Below, one piece after another: positions 36,445 through 61,438 of a DNA stretch of 64,000 nucleotides (position 1 is its first letter; each line of letters starts with the position of its first letter). Source of the stretch: a virus; IMG/VR virus record IMGVR_UViG_3300045988_138996, positions 165,775 through 229,774 of that record; one strand, given 5' to 3'. A model generated the notes under the pieces. The model ran no database searches. It saw only the letters and a list, made by a program, of their open reading frames with translations, and was not told where the DNA came from. Made by a program: the position numbers and the translations under genes.

Positions 36445-37709
36445 GAGTATATATATAGTCTTATAGGAGCTAGATAGGCCAATAAGGATTGGTGAATATT
36501 TAGTATATCGTGATATAGTATATCGTATTATACTATAGTAGTATATAGTAAATATGTGAGATCCTTATTTACAGTAAAAAGAAAAATTCGGCCTTGAAAA
36601 TTTACAGGTCGTAGACCGGAAAATTTTAAGTATTTTCCGCCCGGGGATATCTATATCATATATATAGTATAAGAAGGAACGTAGTGACTGGTAGATATAT
36701 ATTATGTTAATAATATAGTATATTTTCTGCCGTCGGTATTTTGTTAAAAGAGAGACTACTATATATAATAATTTCCGCCTAGGATATTATGGTTTATATA
36801 TAATATGTTTTTAGTTAATGTTTTTCCTGTATGCATACGCATACAGATATTAAAAACTTTTAGGGTGGGATATCTTATAATAATATTGAACGTCAGTGAA
36901 ATGTTATTATAGATTTAAATCTATATTAGATATAATTTTAATGAGAGCTATTAATGTGAAGAATAGGGAGCGCCGCGAATCTATTCAGCTATTAAAATTC
37001 TTAGTCGACACGATAGTATAGTATGGTAGAGATCGTGTCGATAGGTTACGAGTGCTAACGAGTTATATGTAGAATTCGTTGAGATGAAGGATGTTATCGA
37101 TGAGCCCGCGAAGAGAAACATCGTTCTTTAGAATTCGTAACAATATATCTAATGCGTTTGTGTATTATCAATATATATCAAGAAAATATATACTGATGTG
37201 TTTGAGTGAAGCTTGCGAAAAGAAAAACGCAATCAATTTTTATATATCGTAACGAAGCCCGTAAGGGTTCGTATTAGTATTATATATAGCTTATGAATAT
37301 AAGCGTATGTATATAACTATTAATACGAATTATACCAAAGTATTAGAAGTTAGTAAGCGTCTAATAAGTAGGTGGTTTTTGTTTGGGATCCGCCGTTATC
37401 TTAGTATTTCATTTACTAGCTAAGGTATTTAAAAGTCCCTTGCGTTTATTTTAGTCGAGTTATTTTATATATAATATTATATATAATAATAACGAAGAGC
37501 CATTACTGTTAAGAATGGATAGTAGACGAAATTGGGAACGGGCCCCAATAATAGTTATTATATTCTCTTAGAGAATATATAACGTCAATGGTTCGTCGTG
37601 TACGATCCTTTTCGAGTTTCGCAGAAAATTACGTAAGTAAGAGTTTGTAGCATTTGTAAAATGGGACAACATTTTGTTAGTATTCTCGCTATGTTACACA
37701 TAGCGACAC

Positions 37710-58536: not shown

Positions 58537-58929
58537 ATGGAAGTTAAACTTAACGATAACTTTAAATGGTTTTTAGAAAGTTTATTAAACGAAGGTTTCG
58601 ATCAATTCTTTATTGATGATATGTACGGTGCTGTATTTACTAAAAATGGTAAAGTTAGACCTATTGATTGTGCTAATTTTATTACGAGCAACTTATATAG
58701 TGCTTGCCCTGATTTAAAAGAAAATACTGAATATAATATTAAAGATTTTATTGAAGGTAAACTTATTAATAATAATTTTGAATTCGGCGATAAAATTATT
58801 GTAAAATTTAATGGTCAAGAATATGAAGGTATCTTCGTTAGAAAAAGAGGCGAAGCCAATATTGTTGTTATTAAAGAATTTAATAATCAATTGGCTGTTA
58901 CCAATAAAGCTATTAAAAAAGCTGAATAA
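58537..58929 (+). CDS. Hypothetical protein
   Basis: aaaggaaa SD. Confidence 0.6.
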   Translation: MEVKLNDNFKWFLESLLNEGFDQFFIDDMYGAVFTKNGKVRPIDCANFITSNLYSACPDLKENTEYNIKDFIEGKLINNNFEFGDKIIVKFNGQEYEGIFVRKRGEANIVVIKEFNNQLAVTNKAIKKAE

Positions 58930-58951
58930 TTAATTAATAAAGGTGAAAAAA

Positions 58952-59164
58952 ATGAAGGAATTTATTTTAGATAAACTTAAAGAAGCTATCGATCCTAAAG
59001 ATCCTAAGAAAGCTTTAAAATATTTAGGCGAAACGATTACTCGTGAGCAAATGTATACGTATATCGTTAATAAAATTATTGATCAAAAAGATAACGAATG
59101 TGTATATATGCCAATGCCAACTATTTACAATCTATTTATGAGTTTTATTAAGATGCTAAAATAA
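58952..59164 (+). CDS. Small ORF ending 3 nt before the IStron left-end hairpin; possible exon 1 of an interrupted gene
   Basis: aaggtga SD. The TAA stop at 59162-59164 lies at the element boundary. Confidence 0.5.
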   Translation: MKEFILDKLKEAIDPKDPKKALKYLGETITREQMYTYIVNKIIDQKDNECVYMPMPTIYNLFMSFIKMLK

Positions 59165-59166
59165 TA

Positions 59167-59186
59167 TTCATGATTTTTATCATGAA
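59167..59186 (+). repeat. Left-end subterminal hairpin
   Basis: ttcatga-ttttta-tcatgaa. Confidence 0.6.
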
Positions 59187-59189
59187 ATA

Positions 59190-59625
59190 TATTTTAACAA
59201 AATAGTAAGCCTATTGGGAAACTAGTAGGTAGTGACGTTCTTACGCGTCCAACAAAGACACTGAATTGCTGGAAACCCCTAAAGCTCAGAGTACTTATAT
59301 ATATGTTTAATATATAATGAGTTACGAAAGTAGAAATAAATCTTTGAGATAAAATATGGTTAAATCCTAAGTTTTGTTAAGCAATGGGCAATCAGCAGCG
59401 AAGCCGGTGGCGACTTGTCGCCGGAACGTTCAACGACTAGACCTCGTGAGGGTCGTACACTACAAGTCTATAATGGTAGTGGAAGTGGTGTCGCCTAAGT
59501 CGTATCTATTACGATATGGATAAGATATAGTCTGTGCTCATGTGAAAGCATGAGATGCGCGTAATGGCGCTGGCTAGGAAGTGACGATCCTAGCTGAACG
59601 AGACCTCGAATTGATTTTAGAAATA
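59190..59625 (+). ncRNA. Group I intron catalytic core
   Basis: P element AATTGCTGGAAA (59264-59275), Q AATCAGCAGC (59390-59399), R GTTCAACGACTAGA (59428-59441), S AAGATATAGTCT (59522-59533). GACTA/TAGTC can form P7. GC-rich P6/P8/P9-like hairpins. Confidence 0.85.
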
Positions 59626-59729
59626 TGATTCTAAAATGTCCTGGAAAAGTTTTACTGAAAATTTGTTTTTCTGGCAAAAATATGTTATAATTATCTCGTA
59701 ATATAATATTAGAAAGCGAGGTGATTATA

Positions 59730-60983
59730 ATGTATCTAACAATAAAACAACAAGTAAAACATTTAACTAAAGAAGAATATAATATTTTAAGAGAATTGTC
59801 TAGAATAGCTAAGAATTTAACTAATCAAGCAATATATAATGTTCGACAACATTATTTTCAAGAAAAACAATATTTAAGATATGAAGCAAATTATCATGAA
59901 ATGAAATATCTTGAAAATTATAAATTATTAAATGCTAATATAGCTCAACAAACACTTAAAGATGTTGATATAATGTTTAAATCATTTTTTGCTTTAATAA
60001 AATTAGCAAAACAAGGTAAATATGACTTTAAACATATTAAATTACCTAGCTATTTACCTAAAAATAGTTATTCAAATATAGCTATTAGTCAAATTAGAAT
60101 TAAAAATAGTATTTTAACAATTCCATATTCTAATACTTTTAAAAGAAAAAAAGAAGTTAATAAAATTCAAATTAAGATTCCTAAAGTATTAGAAGATAAA
60201 AAAATAAAACAAATTCAAATTATTCCTAAATTTAATGCTAGGTTCTTCGAAATTCAATATACATATGAAATCGAAGAAGAAAATTTAAAATTAAATACTA
60301 ACAATGCACTAGCTATTGATTTAGGTGTAAATAATTTATGTACTTGTGTTACAAATACAGGCAAATCTTTTATTATTGATGGAAGAAAGTTAAAATCTAT
60401 TAATCAATTCTTTAATAAACAAAATGCAAACTTACAATCTATCAAAGACAAACAAAATATTAAACGACAAACAAAACAACAATATTTAATTTCTCGCAAG
60501 AGAAAAAATAGAATTGATGATTATATTAATAAAACCTGTCGATATGTTATTAATTATTGTTTATCTTACGATGTTGGTACTTTAGTTATTGGATATAATC
60601 AATCATTTCAAAATAAAACTAACTTAGGCAAAAGAAATAATCAAATTTTTACACAGTTACCATTTGGTAAGATTCGTGAAAAATTAGAATATTTATGTAA
60701 ACGATATAATATTAATTATATCTTACAAGAAGAATCTTATACTTCTAAAGCTAGTTTCTTTGATAATGATGAGTTGCCTATATATAATGCTGATAATCCA
60801 CAAACCTATGAATTTAGTGGCAAGCGTATTAAAAGAGGTTTATATCAAACTAAAGATAAATATCGTTTTAATGCAGATTGTAACGGAGCATTAAATATTC
60901 TTCGCAAAAGTAAAGCTGTAGACTTAACTGTCTTATGCAATAGAGGCGAACTGGACACGCCTAAAAGAATAAGGATCTCTTAG
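59730..60983 (+). CDS. tnpB: TnpB (IS605 OrfB-type RNA-guided nuclease family), variant lacking the zinc finger
   Basis: gaggtga SD. RuvC motifs ALAIDLGVNN (D), LQEESYTSKAS (E), FNADCNGALNILRK (D). No CxxC pairs between E and D. Confidence 0.85.
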   Translation: MYLTIKQQVKHLTKEEYNILRELSRIAKNLTNQAIYNVRQHYFQEKQYLRYEANYHEMKYLENYKLLNANIAQQTLKDVDIMFKSFFALIKLAKQGKYDFKHIKLPSYLPKNSYSNIAISQIRIKNSILTIPYSNTFKRKKEVNKIQIKIPKVLEDKKIKQIQIIPKFNARFFEIQYTYEIEEENLKLNTNNALAIDLGVNNLCTCVTNTGKSFIIDGRKLKSINQFFNKQNANLQSIKDKQNIKRQTKQQYLISRKRKNRIDDYINKTCRYVINYCLSYDVGTLVIGYNQSFQNKTNLGKRNNQIFTQLPFGKIREKLEYLCKRYNINYILQEESYTSKASFFDNDELPIYNADNPQTYEFSGKRIKRGLYQTKDKYRFNADCNGALNILRKSKAVDLTVLCNRGELDTPKRIRIS

Positions 60984-61012
60984 AAGATCAAACTTCTTAA
61001 TAAAATAACTTT

Positions 61013-61438
61013 ATGTTATTTTTAGAATCATATGACTTTAATCATATGAGGTTCAGTCAAGATATGTGTGATGAACCATATAAACTATTAAGCGATATTA
61101 TTCAAGAAAAACCAAATCTTGAAATTAAAAAGCTTAAAGAACTTGAAACTAAGGAAGTTGAAACTGTCGGCCCGGTTGCAAAATATTTGCTCAACAAATT
61201 TAATCTTGAAGATTATGATGACTTCAGAAAAAAATATATTGATACAGATTTTGAATATCGTTGGTATCCATTGTTCGTAAAATATATTTTAGAAAAGAAT
61301 AATGGTACAGCTAAAAAGTTCGAATTATTAAGCCCGTTCTACGCTCCTAAAAATAGTACGAGCGATTACGACCTTTTTGCTCCTGAAGATTTCGAAGTTA
61401 TCGACGATTATCAATTCGCCGACGAAAGGGACAAATAA
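61013..61438 (+). CDS. ORF continuing out of the IStron right end; possible exon 2 of the interrupted gene
   Basis: The first ~12 codons are encoded by the right-end hairpin. Same frame (mod 3) as 58952-59164. Confidence 0.5.
   Translation: MLFLESYDFNHMRFSQDMCDEPYKLLSDIIQEKPNLEIKKLKELETKEVETVGPVAKYLLNKFNLEDYDDFRKKYIDTDFEYRWYPLFVKYILEKNNGTAKKFELLSPFYAPKNSTSDYDLFAPEDFEVIDDYQFADERDK
61028..61049 (+). repeat. Right-end subterminal hairpin
   Basis: tcatatga-ctttaa-tcatatga. Confidence 0.6.

What the first reader, a model, noticed from the sequence alone, without database searches (positions are those of the whole stretch)
59158..61056. IStron (group I intron fused to a TnpB transposon module) inside a phage genome
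The classical group I core elements are readable by eye and nearly consensus: P AATTGCTGGAAA, Q AATCAGCAGC, R GTTCAACGACTAGA, S AAGATATAGTCT. P/Q and R/S complementarity is present (GACTA/TAGTC for P7), with GC-rich peripheral hairpins in an otherwise AT-rich context. Directly downstream lies a 417-aa TnpB ORF, then a terminal hairpin. A matching subterminal hairpin (TCATGA-type stems at both ends) lies at the left end, and no tnpA is present. This intron-5'/IS-3' arrangement defines IStrons, known from Clostridioides difficile, Clostridium botulinum and Bacillus. A copy carried by a large virulent-looking phage is unusual. It also suggests a clostridial or bacillus-type host and offers a natural case of intron versus omega-RNA processing conflict.
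Basis: partly seen in the sequence, partly recalled or inferred. Interest (0 to 1): 0.8.

Follow-up and report, generated by a model that had tools for sequence, protein, structure and literature searches.

The report
Self-splicing transposon (IStron) splitting a phage gene
A 1.9-kb mobile element that combines a self-splicing intron with an RNA-guided nuclease gene (an IStron, a known kind of element) interrupts a gene of a ~230-kb uncultivated phage. It belongs to a large, previously undescribed IStron lineage that has spread to many different genes of related phages.

Summary
The only correction is the left end: the element is window 59149-61056 (1908 nt), not 59158-61056.

- **Intron.** The Rfam group I intron model scores 64.3 bits (threshold 50) when only the core is searched. 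Whole-window scans missed it because of speed filters. Twenty-two sibling copies support the full fold (P1-P9.2, with P7.1/P7.2) by covariation.
- **Nuclease.** A 417-aa TnpB follows, with an intact catalytic triad and under purifying selection. After it comes a conserved five-hairpin 3' RNA that is probably the guide-RNA scaffold.
- **Group A IStron hallmarks.** All are present: insertion after TTTAT, terminus TCAG, a GAACGA motif after P9.2, a long-range inverted-repeat stem, and hairpins near both ends. There is no tnpA.
- **Empty sites.** Close relatives of the phage carry the uninterrupted gene. Removing the element restores a 192-aa protein.
- **Spread.** Sibling copies (78-93% TnpB identity) sit in at least 15 other phage genes, including ClpP, ThyA, a UvrD-like helicase, DNA polymerase and terminase. 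There are up to four per ~227-kb genome.
- **Transposase source.** Some related phages also carry a complete second IStron that encodes a Y1 transposase.

IStrons, including phage-borne ones, are already known, so this is a new member of a known kind. Its value is as a natural setting for RNA-guided intron homing.

The parts
58952..59148 (+). 5' exon of the interrupted phage gene (a 192-aa protein of unknown function). It starts at the ATG used by the homologues.
   Evidence: Homologues P0001 (97% identity, 192 aa) and P0002 run uninterrupted across the junction ...MSFI|QDMCD.... The intact protein has no significant Pfam or PHROG match.
59144..59148 (+). TTTAT: the insertion-site pentanucleotide, the last bases of the 5' exon, and the presumed motif next to the TnpB target (TAM).
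   Evidence: All full-length sibling copies follow NTTAT, except one that follows CTAT. This matches the group A rule of TTGAT/ATTAT/TTTAT (PMC4227781).
59149..61056 (+). The complete IStron, 1908 nt, from TAAGATG... to ...GAGGTTCAG.
   Evidence: About 25 copies at other sites align to exactly positions 1-1908 and then diverge. Empty sites occur in L001, L002 and L026.
59145..59208 (+). P1 domain. [quoted passage not shown] An extension stem joins 59155-59162 to 59191-59198.
   Evidence: RNAalifold and pair counts give the U-G pair in 22 of 22 copies. The extension stem covaries. The one copy with a CTAT target (L069) carries the compensating A-to-G change in the guide.
59167..59186 (+). Left-end hairpin TTCATGAT/ATCATGAA, an IS200/IS605-type element that lies in the P1 loop.
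   Evidence: Helix 3 has 5 of 8 pairs with changes on both sides. It is nearly identical to the left-end hairpin of the TnpA-bearing IStron of related phages.
59205..59596 (+). Group I ribozyme core of IA2 type: P2, P2.1, P3, P4, P5 with extensions, P6, P7, P7.1, P7.2, P8, P9, P9.1 and P9.2.
   Evidence: Rfam RF00028 scores 64.3 bits at 59205-59554. Of 119 pairs, 98.3% of cells are paired against 36-41% in slid controls, and 56 pairs change on both sides against 10-16 in controls.
59596..59607 (+). The GAACGA motif that marks where the IS part joins the intron, followed by the 5' arm (ACCUC, 59603-59607) of the long-range inverted-repeat stem.
   Evidence: The motif is as described for all IStrons (PMC4227781). 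The arm pairs with GAGGU at 61048-61052. Two copies (L026, L066) carry compensatory double changes and all other variants remain wobble-compatible.
59683..59729 (+). tnpB leader. It holds a conserved extended -10-like TGTTATAAT (59683-59691) and a stem (59690-59699 with 59716-59725) that covers the ribosome-binding site GAGGTG (59718-59723).
   Evidence: Both are conserved in alignment A3, and RNAalifold predicts the stem (columns 582-591 with 611-620) with only wobble-compatible changes. Their function is inferred. The generic promoter scan was uninformative.
59730..60983 (+). tnpB, encoding a 417-aa RNA-guided endonuclease family protein. The catalytic residues are D197, E335 and D383. There are no zinc-finger cysteines.
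   Evidence: Pfam and NCBIfam matches. The D/E/D triad is invariant in 41 of 41 copies, 40 of 41 ORFs are intact, and the median dN/dS is 0.156.
60915..61056 (+). Candidate guide-RNA (omega RNA) scaffold made of five stem-loops: 60915-60938, 60944-60962, 60965-60998, 61002-61022 and the right-end hairpin 61029-61048. It overlaps the end of tnpB.
   Evidence: 99.2% of cells are paired against 38-47% in slid controls, and 11 of 35 pairs change on both sides against 0-3 in controls. The assignment as omega RNA is by analogy. No Rfam family matches.
61048..61056 (+). GAGGUUCAG: the 3' arm of the inverted-repeat stem, the TCAG terminus, and the terminal G (61056) at the 3' splice site and transposon right end.
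   Evidence: The terminus is identical in all intron-bearing copies. TCAG is the published group A terminus.
61057..61072 (+). First 16 nt of the 3' exon (TCAAGATATGTGTGAT), the predicted guide/target sequence of the TnpB-omega RNA complex.
   Evidence: This is inferred from the IS605 and IStron mechanism (PMC10690162). The same 16 nt directly follow TTTAT in the empty alleles of L001 and L026.
61057..61438 (+). 3' exon of the interrupted gene, including the stop codon.
   Evidence: It is in frame with the 5' exon after excision and collinear with the homologues.

Best explanation
Window 59149-61056 is a non-autonomous IStron of group A (IS200/IS605 type) with 'ORF B only' architecture. It sits in the sense orientation inside a 192-aa gene of a ~230-kb uncultivated tailed phage.

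**Shown here**
- The anatomy and exact boundaries.
- A conserved, covarying group I (IA2-like) fold whose P1 uses the TTAT target as its 5' exon strand.
- A terminal G that coincides with the transposon's right end.
- An intact, selectively constrained TnpB.
- A conserved structured 3' RNA.
- Presence/absence polymorphism at this site and at many others.
- A Y1 TnpA encoded by a second IStron family in related phages.

**Inferred mechanism**
1. The element is transcribed as part of the host gene's mRNA. The ribozyme splices it out after U59148 and G61056, joining ...UUUAU to UCAAGAU... and restoring the reading frame, so the insertion costs the phage little.
2. Some transcripts are instead processed into an omega RNA made of the 3' scaffold plus about 16 nt of the 3' exon. 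Splicing and guide formation exclude each other, because splicing cuts the scaffold away from the guide.
3. TnpB loaded with this RNA cuts intron-less alleles (TTTAT followed by TCAAGATATGTGTGAT). Such alleles arise after excision, or are carried by a co-infecting relative. Repair from the occupied copy then reinstates or spreads the element, which is homing.
4. Moves to new TTAT sites need a Y1 transposase supplied in trans. The most plausible source is the TnpA-bearing sibling IStron found in some genomes of the same phage clade.
For: **Intron**
- Rfam Intron_gpI scores 64.3 bits against a threshold of 50. Sibling L035 scores 51.9 bits.
- The core is 68-70% identical at the DNA level to IStron or intron cores in Clostridioides and Listeria phage records; the Listeria record scores 66.4 bits with Rfam.
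- Covariation over 119 pairs is strong.
- The inverted-repeat stem shows compensatory changes.

**Boundaries and gene restoration**
- Empty-site homologues exist.
- About 25 copies share exact ends.
- Excision in silico restores a long sense-strand ORF in most of the 26 copies, and never a comparable antisense one. Many copies have lengths that are not multiples of 3.
- Single Pfam domain matches run across the restored junctions in ClpP, thymidylate synthase, a UvrD helicase, family A DNA polymerase and terminase.

**TnpB and guide RNA**: for the protein; for the RNA.

**Group A hallmarks**: definitions from PMC4227781 and PMC13565253.

**Mobility**
- At least 15 insertion sites are seen.
- There are 73 matches to an intron-specific signature in IMG/VR, up to 4 per 227-kb contig.
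- The window is empty at five sites that relatives have occupied.

**Transposase in trans**
- A Y1_Tnp domain scores 133 bits in L155.
- The same TnpA (at least 91% identity) lies on contigs that also carry this family, for example the 227,762-bp and 236,501-bp contigs.
- Its element has near-identical hairpins at both ends and also ends in TCAG.
Against: - No RNA data exist. Splicing, guide-RNA processing and nuclease activity are all inferred.
- This TnpB lacks the CxxC...CxxC zinc-finger cysteines usual in the TNB domain. It has no sequence-detectable relative with a solved structure, so nuclease activity is not guaranteed.
- No TnpA was found in the window or within 2.5 kb of any sibling copy. 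Whether this phage genome encodes one elsewhere is unknown.
- The TnpA-bearing sibling family inserts after ...GAT, not TTAT, so mobilisation in trans is plausible but untested.
- Empty alleles show no excess of substitutions in the TAM or target region, as repeated TnpB attack or co-conversion might produce (small sample).
Confidence: 0.88

Rival explanations
1. The element is an ordinary mobile group I intron whose homing-endonuclease slot is filled by TnpB. It spreads only by homing, plus occasional reverse splicing into UUAU sites of RNA followed by reverse transcription and recombination. No DNA transposase is ever involved.
For: - The element has no tnpA, and none lies near any family copy.
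- Every insertion follows TTAT, which is exactly the sequence complementary to the intron's internal guide. Reverse splicing would therefore give the same site preference as a transposase.
- All copies lie in the sense orientation within genes.
- The 2026 review proposes homing for TnpA-less IStrons (PMC13565253).
Against: - The ends keep IS200/IS605-type hairpins, the TCAG terminus and insertion without target duplication.
- Those hairpins nearly match the ends of a co-resident IStron that does encode a Y1 TnpA.
- No reverse transcriptase was seen, though none was searched for systematically.
- The sense orientation is equally explained by selection against insertions that cannot splice.
Confidence: 0.1
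2. The element is a decaying relic. The intron still splices, which the phage needs, but TnpB and its RNA no longer act as a nuclease or serve another role such as regulation. The element is now simply inherited vertically.
For: - The TnpB has no zinc-finger cysteines.
- There is no tnpA.
- Several relatives have lost the intron core or sit between genes.
- Domesticated, nuclease-dead TnpB relatives are known (title and abstract of PMC10705468).
Against: - The catalytic D/E/D residues are invariant in 41 of 41 copies, the median dN/dS is 0.156, and 40 of 41 ORFs are intact.
- The 3' RNA structure is conserved with covariation up to the exact transposon end.
- Closely related phages (87-98% identity in the flanks) differ in which sites are occupied. 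This indicates recent mobility.
Confidence: 0.1
3. The juxtaposition is accidental. A free-standing group I intron and an unrelated TnpB-only insertion sequence happen to lie side by side and are not one unit.
For: Group I introns without ORFs, and TnpB genes without introns, both occur separately in related phages (L039 5804-6028; L045, L041 and L042).
Against: - The whole 1908-nt unit moves as one block with identical ends at 15 or more sites.
- The 3' splice site (the terminal G) lies after tnpB, at the transposon's right end.
- A covarying long-range stem joins 59603-59607 to 61048-61052 across tnpB.
- The empty site lacks the whole block.
Confidence: 0.02

Closest known systems
CdISt1 and the other group A IStrons (Clostridioides difficile, Enterococcus, Megasphaera, Megamonas, Fusobacterium; Braun 2000, Hasselmayer 2004, Tourasse 2014 = PMC4227781)
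   Same: - An IA2-type intron lies at the 5' side.
- The IS200/IS605 module joins after P9.2 at a GAACGA motif.
- An inverted-repeat stem bridges the ORF region.
- Hairpins lie near both ends.
- Insertion follows a T-rich pentanucleotide (here TTTAT), the terminus is TCAG, and there is no target duplication.
- 'ORF B only' variants are known.
- The intron core is about 70% identical in DNA to a CdISt1-like copy in Clostridioides phage ES-S-0173-01.
   Different: - The TnpB belongs to a different clade. It is not detectable by tblastn (E < 1e-3) against the TnpBs of the Clostridioides, Listeria or C. botulinum phage IStrons.
- It lacks zinc-finger cysteines.
- Its nearest bacterial relatives are Selenomonadaceae loci (58-62% identity) that also carry the intron.
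- Members at or above 78% TnpB identity were found on viral contigs, apart from two copies on a 208-kb contig binned as Gemella that is probably also phage. The lineage has multiplied there.
CbISt3 / CbISt4 in Clostridium botulinum phages c-st and D-1873 (group B IStrons; PMC4227781), and the CboIStron studied in PMC10690162
   Same: They are IStrons carried by phage genomes, with the order group I intron, then TnpB, then 3' guide RNA. Splicing and guide-RNA formation compete on the same transcript.
   Different: Group B elements are of IS607 type. They use a serine-recombinase TnpA, insert after GG (TGGG), end in CGG, and have a G instead of a U at the 5' splice site. They also carry a RAGATH-18-type 3' RNA, which scores 61.7 bits in L004 and is absent here. 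The present element meets the group A criteria, not those of group B.
Group I introns of phages that carry a homing endonuclease (T4 td/I-TevI type; the PhiPA3 intron endonuclease, PMC11620839)
   Same: A self-splicing intron sits in a phage protein-coding gene and carries a nuclease gene in a peripheral position. Presence or absence varies between related phages. Spread is expected during co-infection.
   Different: - The nuclease here is RNA-guided, and its specificity is copied from whatever flanks the element. One element type can therefore occupy many unrelated genes (at least 15 sites here) rather than one cognate site.
- The ends are transposon ends.
IS200/IS605 elements with TnpB (ISDra2, IS608)
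   Same: Hairpins lie near both ends. Insertion is 3' of a short AT-rich motif without duplication. The TnpB gene has an omega RNA that overlaps its 3' end and runs to the right end (PMC10055086 and PMC8612924, listed).
   Different: The element has no TnpA, and about 450 nt of ribozyme lie between the left end and tnpB, so the insertion can be spliced out.

Membership tests
Group I intron (Rfam RF00028; subgroup IA2) | Covariance-model score at or above the family's gathering score | tested here: met
   The score is 64.3 bits against 50, E = 3.4e-16, with the full model matched at 59205-59554. The whole-window and 2.4-kb scans missed it.
Group I intron (Rfam RF00028; subgroup IA2) | P1 formed between the 5' exon and an internal guide sequence, with a U-G wobble at the splice site | tested here: met
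   59145-59150 pairs with 59203-59208. The U-G pair is present in 22 of 22 copies, and one copy has a compensatory change that matches its altered target.
Group I intron (Rfam RF00028; subgroup IA2) | Conserved core P3-P8, including the P3/P7 pseudoknot, supported by covariation | tested here: met
   98.3% of cells are paired against 36-41% in slid controls, and 56 of 119 pairs change on both sides. P3, P5, P8 and P9 covary. P4 and P7 never vary, so they are uninformative.
Group I intron (Rfam RF00028; subgroup IA2) | IA2 peripheral elements: P7.1, P7.2, P9.0, P9.1 and P9.2 | tested here: met
   P7.1, P7.2, P9.1 and P9.2 are present and covary. P9.0 (UG at 59535-59536 with the CA before the terminal G) is only a by-eye proposal on invariant bases.
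Group I intron (Rfam RF00028; subgroup IA2) | Terminal G at the 3' splice site | tested here: met
   G61056 is the last base of the insertion as defined by the empty sites. All copies end in TCAG.
Group I intron (Rfam RF00028; subgroup IA2) | Self-splicing activity | not testable with these tools
   The evidence is indirect only: sense-strand ORFs and intact Pfam domains are restored by exact excision in many essential genes.
IStron, group A (PMC4227781) | Intron at the 5' side, with the IS module joined downstream of P9.2 after a GAACGA-type motif | tested here: met
   GAACGA lies at 59596-59601, directly after P9.2 (59571-59596).
IStron, group A (PMC4227781) | Insertion after TTGAT, ATTAT or TTTAT, a 3' terminus of TCAG, and no target duplication | tested here: met
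   The junctions are TTTAT|TAAG... and ...TCAG|TCAAG. The siblings follow TTTAT, ATTAT, GTTAT, CTTAT or (once) ACTAT. Their 3' flanks are unrelated.
IStron, group A (PMC4227781) | IS200/IS605-type palindromes near both ends | tested here: met
   They lie at 59167-59186 and 61029-61048, and both covary.
IStron, group A (PMC4227781) | Short inverted-repeat stem enclosing the ORF region | tested here: met
   ACCUC (59603-59607) pairs with GAGGU (61048-61052). L026 and L066 carry compensatory changes.
IStron, group A (PMC4227781) | An IS200/IS605 ORF B (TnpB), with ORF A (Y1 TnpA) present in autonomous copies | tested here: met
   TnpB is present. ORF A is absent, which corresponds to the published 'ORF B only' variant. 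The element is therefore non-autonomous.
IStron, group A (PMC4227781) | Multiple copies in unrelated genes, with empty sites in relatives | tested here: met
   There are at least 15 sites and 22 non-redundant comparisons of occupied against empty sites.
IStron, group B (IS607 type) | Insertion after GG, terminus CGG, serine-recombinase TnpA, RAGATH-18-type 3' RNA | tested here: not met
   The target is TTTAT and the terminus is TCAG. RAGATH-18 gives no hit at E <= 10 in 58900-61300, whereas L004 scores 61.7 bits.
TnpB (OMEGA RNA-guided nuclease) | Family profile match and the RuvC D-E-D triad | tested here: met
   NF040570 scores 186 bits against 100. The residues are D197 (AIDLG), E335 (QEESYTS) and D383 (NADCNG), invariant in 41 of 41 copies. 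They were assigned from the motifs, not from a structural superposition.
TnpB (OMEGA RNA-guided nuclease) | Zinc finger (CxxC...CxxC) in the TNB domain | tested here: not met
   There are no cysteine pairs between residues 339 and 383. The whole clade has DNPQTYEFSGKRIKRGLY there instead. The Pfam TNB match is weak (2e-07), against 1.9e-24 for the zinc-finger TnpB of L155.
TnpB (OMEGA RNA-guided nuclease) | An omega RNA encoded at the 3' end of tnpB and the right end, with the guide continuing into the flank | tested here: inconclusive
   A conserved, covarying five-hairpin RNA ends exactly at the right end. No expression data or known omega RNA model confirm its identity.
Autonomous IS200/IS605 element | Encodes a Y1 (HUH) TnpA | tested here: not met
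   tblastn finds no hit in the window. The same queries find the TnpA in L005, L155 and L156.

The most novel reading that the evidence does not exclude
This lineage may be a phage-adapted IStron system in which a TnpA-less intron/TnpB unit acts as a reprogrammable, RNA-guided homing element between co-infecting ~230-kb phages. Each copy would take its target from its own 3' exon. It would cut the intron-less allele of a rival or sibling genome and be copied in, much as classical phage intron endonucleases are. An occasional co-resident 'master' IStron encoding a Y1 TnpA would seed new TTAT sites, including sites in essential genes (ClpP, ThyA, polymerase, terminase). That would be the first natural case of RNA-guided intron homing, and possibly of competition between phages, driven by TnpB.
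Probability: 0.4. Interest if true: 0.75.

Novelty: new member of a known kind. Interest (0 to 1): 0.55.

Why it matters
IStrons are the one known case in which a ribozyme, a transposon and an RNA-guided nuclease share a single transcript. How those three roles are balanced is under active study (PMC10690162, PMC13521648).

- **Scale and setting.** The lineage is large and recently mobile, and it lives in phage genomes. IMG/VR holds 73 intron-bearing copies, with up to four per genome. More than 120 TnpB clusters at 87% identity or above lie mostly on 220-237-kb contigs.
- **An open idea becomes testable.** Co-infection is the classical setting for intron homing. A 2026 review says that homing by TnpA-less IStrons still awaits experimental validation (PMC13565253). 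Here the target sequences, the empty alleles and a candidate helper transposase are all in hand.
- **Annotation.** Gene callers split the host gene into 70-aa and 124-aa fragments, and one source labels the TnpB only as 'endonuclease'.
- **Tool leads.** The lineage offers a compact TnpB without a zinc finger, and many natural pairs of guide and target.

Tried and rejected
1. **Rfam scans that missed the intron.** Scans of the whole window (gathering threshold) and of 58900-61300 (E <= 10) gave no group I hit. This looked like a refutation, but it was a filter artefact: the 421-nt core alone scores 64.3 bits.
Position 59158 gives an in-frame fusion with three extra residues (KML) that are absent from every homologue. 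I rejected it in favour of 59149.
3. **Megablast against the phage collection.** Neither the element nor 24 kb of the window gave a match. The phage is not in that collection.
4. **Solved structures.** Searches with the TnpB alone and with a nine-sequence profile found nothing. No structure prediction was run.
5. **Signs of an arms race or co-conversion.** I looked for excess substitutions in the TAM or the 16-nt target of empty alleles. Rates were 5-14% per position bin, with no peak. The synonymous changes seen at two empty sites in the window are therefore not significant.
6. **Generic promoter and terminator scan.** It was uninformative in this A+T-rich DNA (22 found against 18.4 expected).
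7. **Search for tnpA near family copies.** None was found within 2.5 kb of any copy. TnpA turned up only in a second IStron family.
8. **P10 pairing with the 3' exon.** None is evident, and the 3' flanks are unrelated between copies.
9. **Host assignment.** It remains unresolved.

Full report
**1. What was checked first**

The surrounding 220 nt has 50% G+C, against 31% for the window. The stretch 59150-59720 folds more stably than shuffled versions (z = -4.7).

The ORF at 59730-60983 is a TnpB. It matches Pfam OrfB_IS605 (4.8e-31) and the Cas12f1-like TNB domain, and NCBIfam NF040570 'RNA-guided endonuclease TnpB family' at 186 bits against a cut-off of 100.

The window is phage DNA:
- It encodes a DNA polymerase (phrog_405, 1.4e-232) and tail proteins.
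- Almost all ORFs lie on one strand.
- The identical TnpB protein occurs on metagenomic contigs of 229,838 and 230,820 bp, and one source names it 'MAG TPA: endonuclease [Caudoviricetes sp.]'.
- The phage has no close relative in the INPHARED phage collection. Its polymerase is at most 35% identical to any there.

**2. The covariance-model test**

Rfam gave no group I hit on the whole window at gathering threshold. It also gave none on 58900-61300 at E <= 10.

This was a false negative of the speed filters. When only 59195-59615 is searched, RF00028 Intron_gpI matches 59205-59554 over its full length at 64.3 bits (gathering score 50, E = 3.4e-16).

Independent support:
- Sibling copy L035 passes at 51.9 bits in a bulk scan.
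- A Listeria phage record whose intron is 68% identical over 351 nt passes at 66.4 bits.
- blastn links the core to an annotated 'Group I catalytic intron' in Clostridium phage D-1873.

**3. Exact boundaries**

Its homologues, P0001 (192 aa, 97% identity) and P0002 (75%), lack three residues at the junction and read ...NLFMSFI|QDMCDEPYKLL....

The empty-site DNA in L001 reads GAGCTTTAT|TCAAGATATGTG. The insertion is therefore 59149-61056 (1908 nt): TTTAT | TAAGATGC ... GAGGTTCAG | TCAAGAT.

About 25 further full-length copies from viral contigs align with the element from exactly its first base to exactly its last, and then diverge. They follow TTTAT, ATTAT, GTTAT, CTTAT or, once, ACTAT. All end in GAGGTTCAG, and their 3' flanks are unrelated. 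This resolves the one-base ambiguity at the junction. It places a U at the end of the 5' exon and a G at the end of the intron.

**4. RNA structure**

An alignment of 22 copies (A3) supports a complete group I fold. It comprises:
- P1 (exon UUAU plus UA paired with UAGUAA);
- a P1 extension that encloses the left-end hairpin;
- P2, P2.1, P3, P4 and P5 with a long variable extension;
- P7, P7.1, P7.2, P8, P9, P9.1 and P9.2.

On 119 pairs, 98.3% of cells form standard pairs, against 36-41% when partners are slid by 1-3 columns. Fifty-six pairs show changes on both sides, against 10-16 in the controls. The covariation score is 0.372, against 0.076 or less. None of 500 column shuffles reached the observed values.

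P4 and P7 never vary, so they neither support nor contradict the fold. P3 has two compensatory pairs.

The U-G wobble at the 5' splice site is present in all 22 copies. The single copy inserted after CTAT (L069) has the matching A-to-G change in its internal guide.

P7.1/P7.2 and P9.1/P9.2 are the IA2 features reported for all IStrons.

**5. The junction with the IS part, and the 3' end**

Directly after P9.2 comes GAACGA (59596-59601). This is the motif Tourasse et al. describe as the point where the IS component joins the intron in all IStrons.

The next bases, ACCUC (59603-59607), pair with GAGGU (61048-61052) just before the terminal UCAG. This gives a stem that spans 1.45 kb and brings the 3' splice site back to the core. 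Across 30 or more copies the variants are wobble-compatible, and two copies (L026 and L066) carry full compensatory double changes.

The intron-less derivatives L040, L043 and L045 have mutated this GAGG. That fits a constraint which exists only while the ribozyme is present.

**6. TnpB and its RNA**

- The D197/E335/D383 motifs (AIDLG, QEESYTS, NADCNG) are invariant in 41 of 41 copies.
- 40 of 41 ORFs are intact.
- The median pairwise dN/dS is 0.156 at a median dS of 0.55.

The protein lacks the usual zinc-finger cysteines. It has no sequence-detectable relative in the PDB.

It is not detectably similar (tblastn E < 1e-3) to the TnpBs of the Clostridioides, Listeria or C. botulinum phage IStrons, even though the introns are related. 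So similar ribozymes are paired with different nuclease clades. This is consistent with the 'multiple symbioses' view of PMC4227781.

The last ~140 nt of the element (60915-61056) form five conserved stem-loops, including the right-end hairpin. There, 99.2% of cells are paired against 38-47% in slid controls, and 11 of 35 pairs change on both sides against 0-3. By position this is the expected omega RNA scaffold: it overlaps the 3' end of tnpB and stops exactly at the transposon end. That identity is inferred, not shown.

The guide would be the first ~16 nt of the 3' exon. The same 16 nt follow TTTAT in the empty alleles of L001 and L026. Those alleles are therefore predicted targets.

**7. 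Evidence that splicing matters**

After excision in silico, most of the 26 copies yield a long sense-strand ORF across the junction, for example 229+147, 164+156 and 500+162 codons. None yields a comparable antisense ORF. Many elements have lengths that are not multiples of three.

Restored proteins give single, uninterrupted Pfam matches across the junction:

| Locus | Restored protein | Pfam evidence |
|---|---|---|
| L075 | ClpP | 213.9 bits |
| L036 | thymidylate synthase | 291.7 bits |
| L037 | UvrD-type helicase | domain match |
| L034 | family A DNA polymerase | domain match |
| L039 | large terminase | domain match |
| L044 | M23 peptidase | domain match |
| L038 | VgrG3-like C-terminal domain | domain match |

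Insertions in such genes can persist only if they are removed from the mRNA.

**8. Mobility and population picture**

Related phages, with flanks 87-98% identical, differ in which sites are occupied.
- L001, L002 and L026 are empty at the window's site.
- The window is empty at sites occupied in L025 (57266|57267), L026 (61728|61729), L027 (48344|48345), L065 (about 45043) and a second copy in L001 (about 63268).

A 20-nt intron signature has 73 matches in IMG/VR. Up to four lie on one 227-kb contig and three on a 212-kb contig. The protein search lists more than 120 clusters at 87% identity or above, mostly on 220-237-kb contigs.

Among bacterial genomes, only Selenomonadaceae metagenome-assembled genomes (58-62%, with the intron), cyanobacteria (about 49%), and one 208-kb contig binned as 'uncultured Gemella sp.' were found. 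The last is probably a phage genome.

Some copies have lost the ribozyme core or sit between genes.

**9. Where a transposase could come from**

Neither the window nor the 2.5-kb flanks of sibling copies encode a Y1 TnpA. One of the two tblastn queries was an IS200 TnpA sequence written from memory. It was validated only by the hits it produced, which Pfam then confirmed.

Related phage contigs carry a second, complete IStron: an intron, a TnpA (Pfam Y1_Tnp, 133 bits), and a 364-aa zinc-finger TnpB. That TnpA, at 91% identity or above, lies on contigs that also hold the TnpA-less family. Examples are IMGVR_UViG_3300008556_000003 (227,762 bp) and IMGVR_UViG_3300007996_000009 (236,501 bp).

Its element ends in GTCAG, and its hairpins are nearly the same as those of the present family. 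It inserts after ...GAT rather than TTAT. In IS200/IS605 elements the target is read by bases of the element's own left end, not by the protein alone. This is established for IS608 and is my own knowledge, not a tool result. Mobilisation in trans is therefore plausible but untested.

**10. Comparison with known systems, and verdict**

Every defining feature of group A IStrons was tested and met. The group B features were not met.

IStrons in phages were already reported: CbISt3 and CbISt4 in phages c-st and D-1873. Full-text searches found no description of this lineage or of IStron expansion in large phages. The library searched is incomplete, however.

I therefore class this as a new member of a known kind. 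It is ordinary in architecture and noteworthy for three things:
- its setting in a phage;
- its copy number;
- its TnpB, which lacks a zinc finger.

It applies here by inference.

Noticed in passing
window 37519-37684 (+): This is a full-length match to the Rfam family OTKONC RNA (RF03053): 160.2 bits against a gathering score of 141.4, E = 2.9e-26. It is a structured RNA of unknown function and lies far from the IStron.
   Followed up: no
window 57266|57267, 61728|61729, 48344|48345, about 45043 and about 63268: The window is empty at five sites where closely related phages (L025, L026, L027, L065, and a second copy in L001) carry an IStron of the same family. The L027 site is identical to the occupied allele over at least 20 nt on each side. 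At the L025 and L026 sites the window differs by several synonymous changes in the predicted 16-nt target, but a pooled test showed no significant excess.
   Followed up: yes
L155 10212-12406; also L156, L166-L177: Related phages carry a second, complete IStron family: a group I intron, a Y1 TnpA (Pfam Y1_Tnp, 133 bits), and a 364-aa TnpB with a zinc finger. It inserts after ...GAT and ends in GTCAG. It occurs on some of the same ~230-kb contigs as the TnpA-less family.
   Followed up: partly
L155 7440-9236: This is a chimeric element. Its left end and intron are of the window's family (TAAGATGTC...), but they are joined to a different 366-aa TnpB with a zinc finger and a different right end (...GGATATCAG). 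This suggests that IStron families exchange modules. The variable hairpins P5, P6, P7.2 and P8 in alignment A3 also look shuffled between copies.
   Followed up: no
L054, L043/L033, L045, L041, L042, L040, L049, L052, L072 (about 330 nt upstream of tnpB): These derivatives of the family lack the ribozyme. Some keep the left end and P1-P3 but have lost P4-P9.2. Others are TnpB genes without an intron, apparently between genes. In L040, L043 and L045 the 3' arm (GAGG) of the long-range stem is mutated.
   Followed up: partly
L039 5804-6028: A separate group I intron without an ORF (Rfam 112.6 bits) lies in a related phage. Inteins (Pfam Intein_splicing) are also present in the DNA polymerase (L034) and terminase (L039) genes that carry IStrons. 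These phage genes therefore accumulate several kinds of self-splicing element.
   Followed up: no
window 60744-60880 (TnpB residues 339-383): This TnpB clade has no CxxC...CxxC zinc-finger cysteines in the TNB region. The conserved segment DNPQTYEFSGKRIKRGLY takes their place, in the Selenomonadaceae and cyanobacterial relatives as well.
   Followed up: partly
window 59690-59699 with 59716-59725: A conserved stem pairs AUUAUCUCGU with GCGAGGUGAU and so covers the tnpB ribosome-binding site (GAGGTG, 59718-59723). It lies just downstream of a conserved TGTTATAAT (59683-59691). It may control TnpB translation. Only wobble-type variation is seen.
   Followed up: no
L173/L176 and L075: In different phages, two different IStron families interrupt the same ClpP gene only about ten codons apart (…LAIYD|TMKLV… and …HTIGY|GMCAS…).
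   Followed up: no
window 59137-59148 and 61045-61056: The last 12 nt of the 5' exon (TATGAGTTTTAT) resemble the last 12 nt of the element (TATGAGGTTCAG). This made BLAST alignments of empty sites overlap by about 10 nt. Other copies do not show the resemblance, so it is probably chance.
   Followed up: partly
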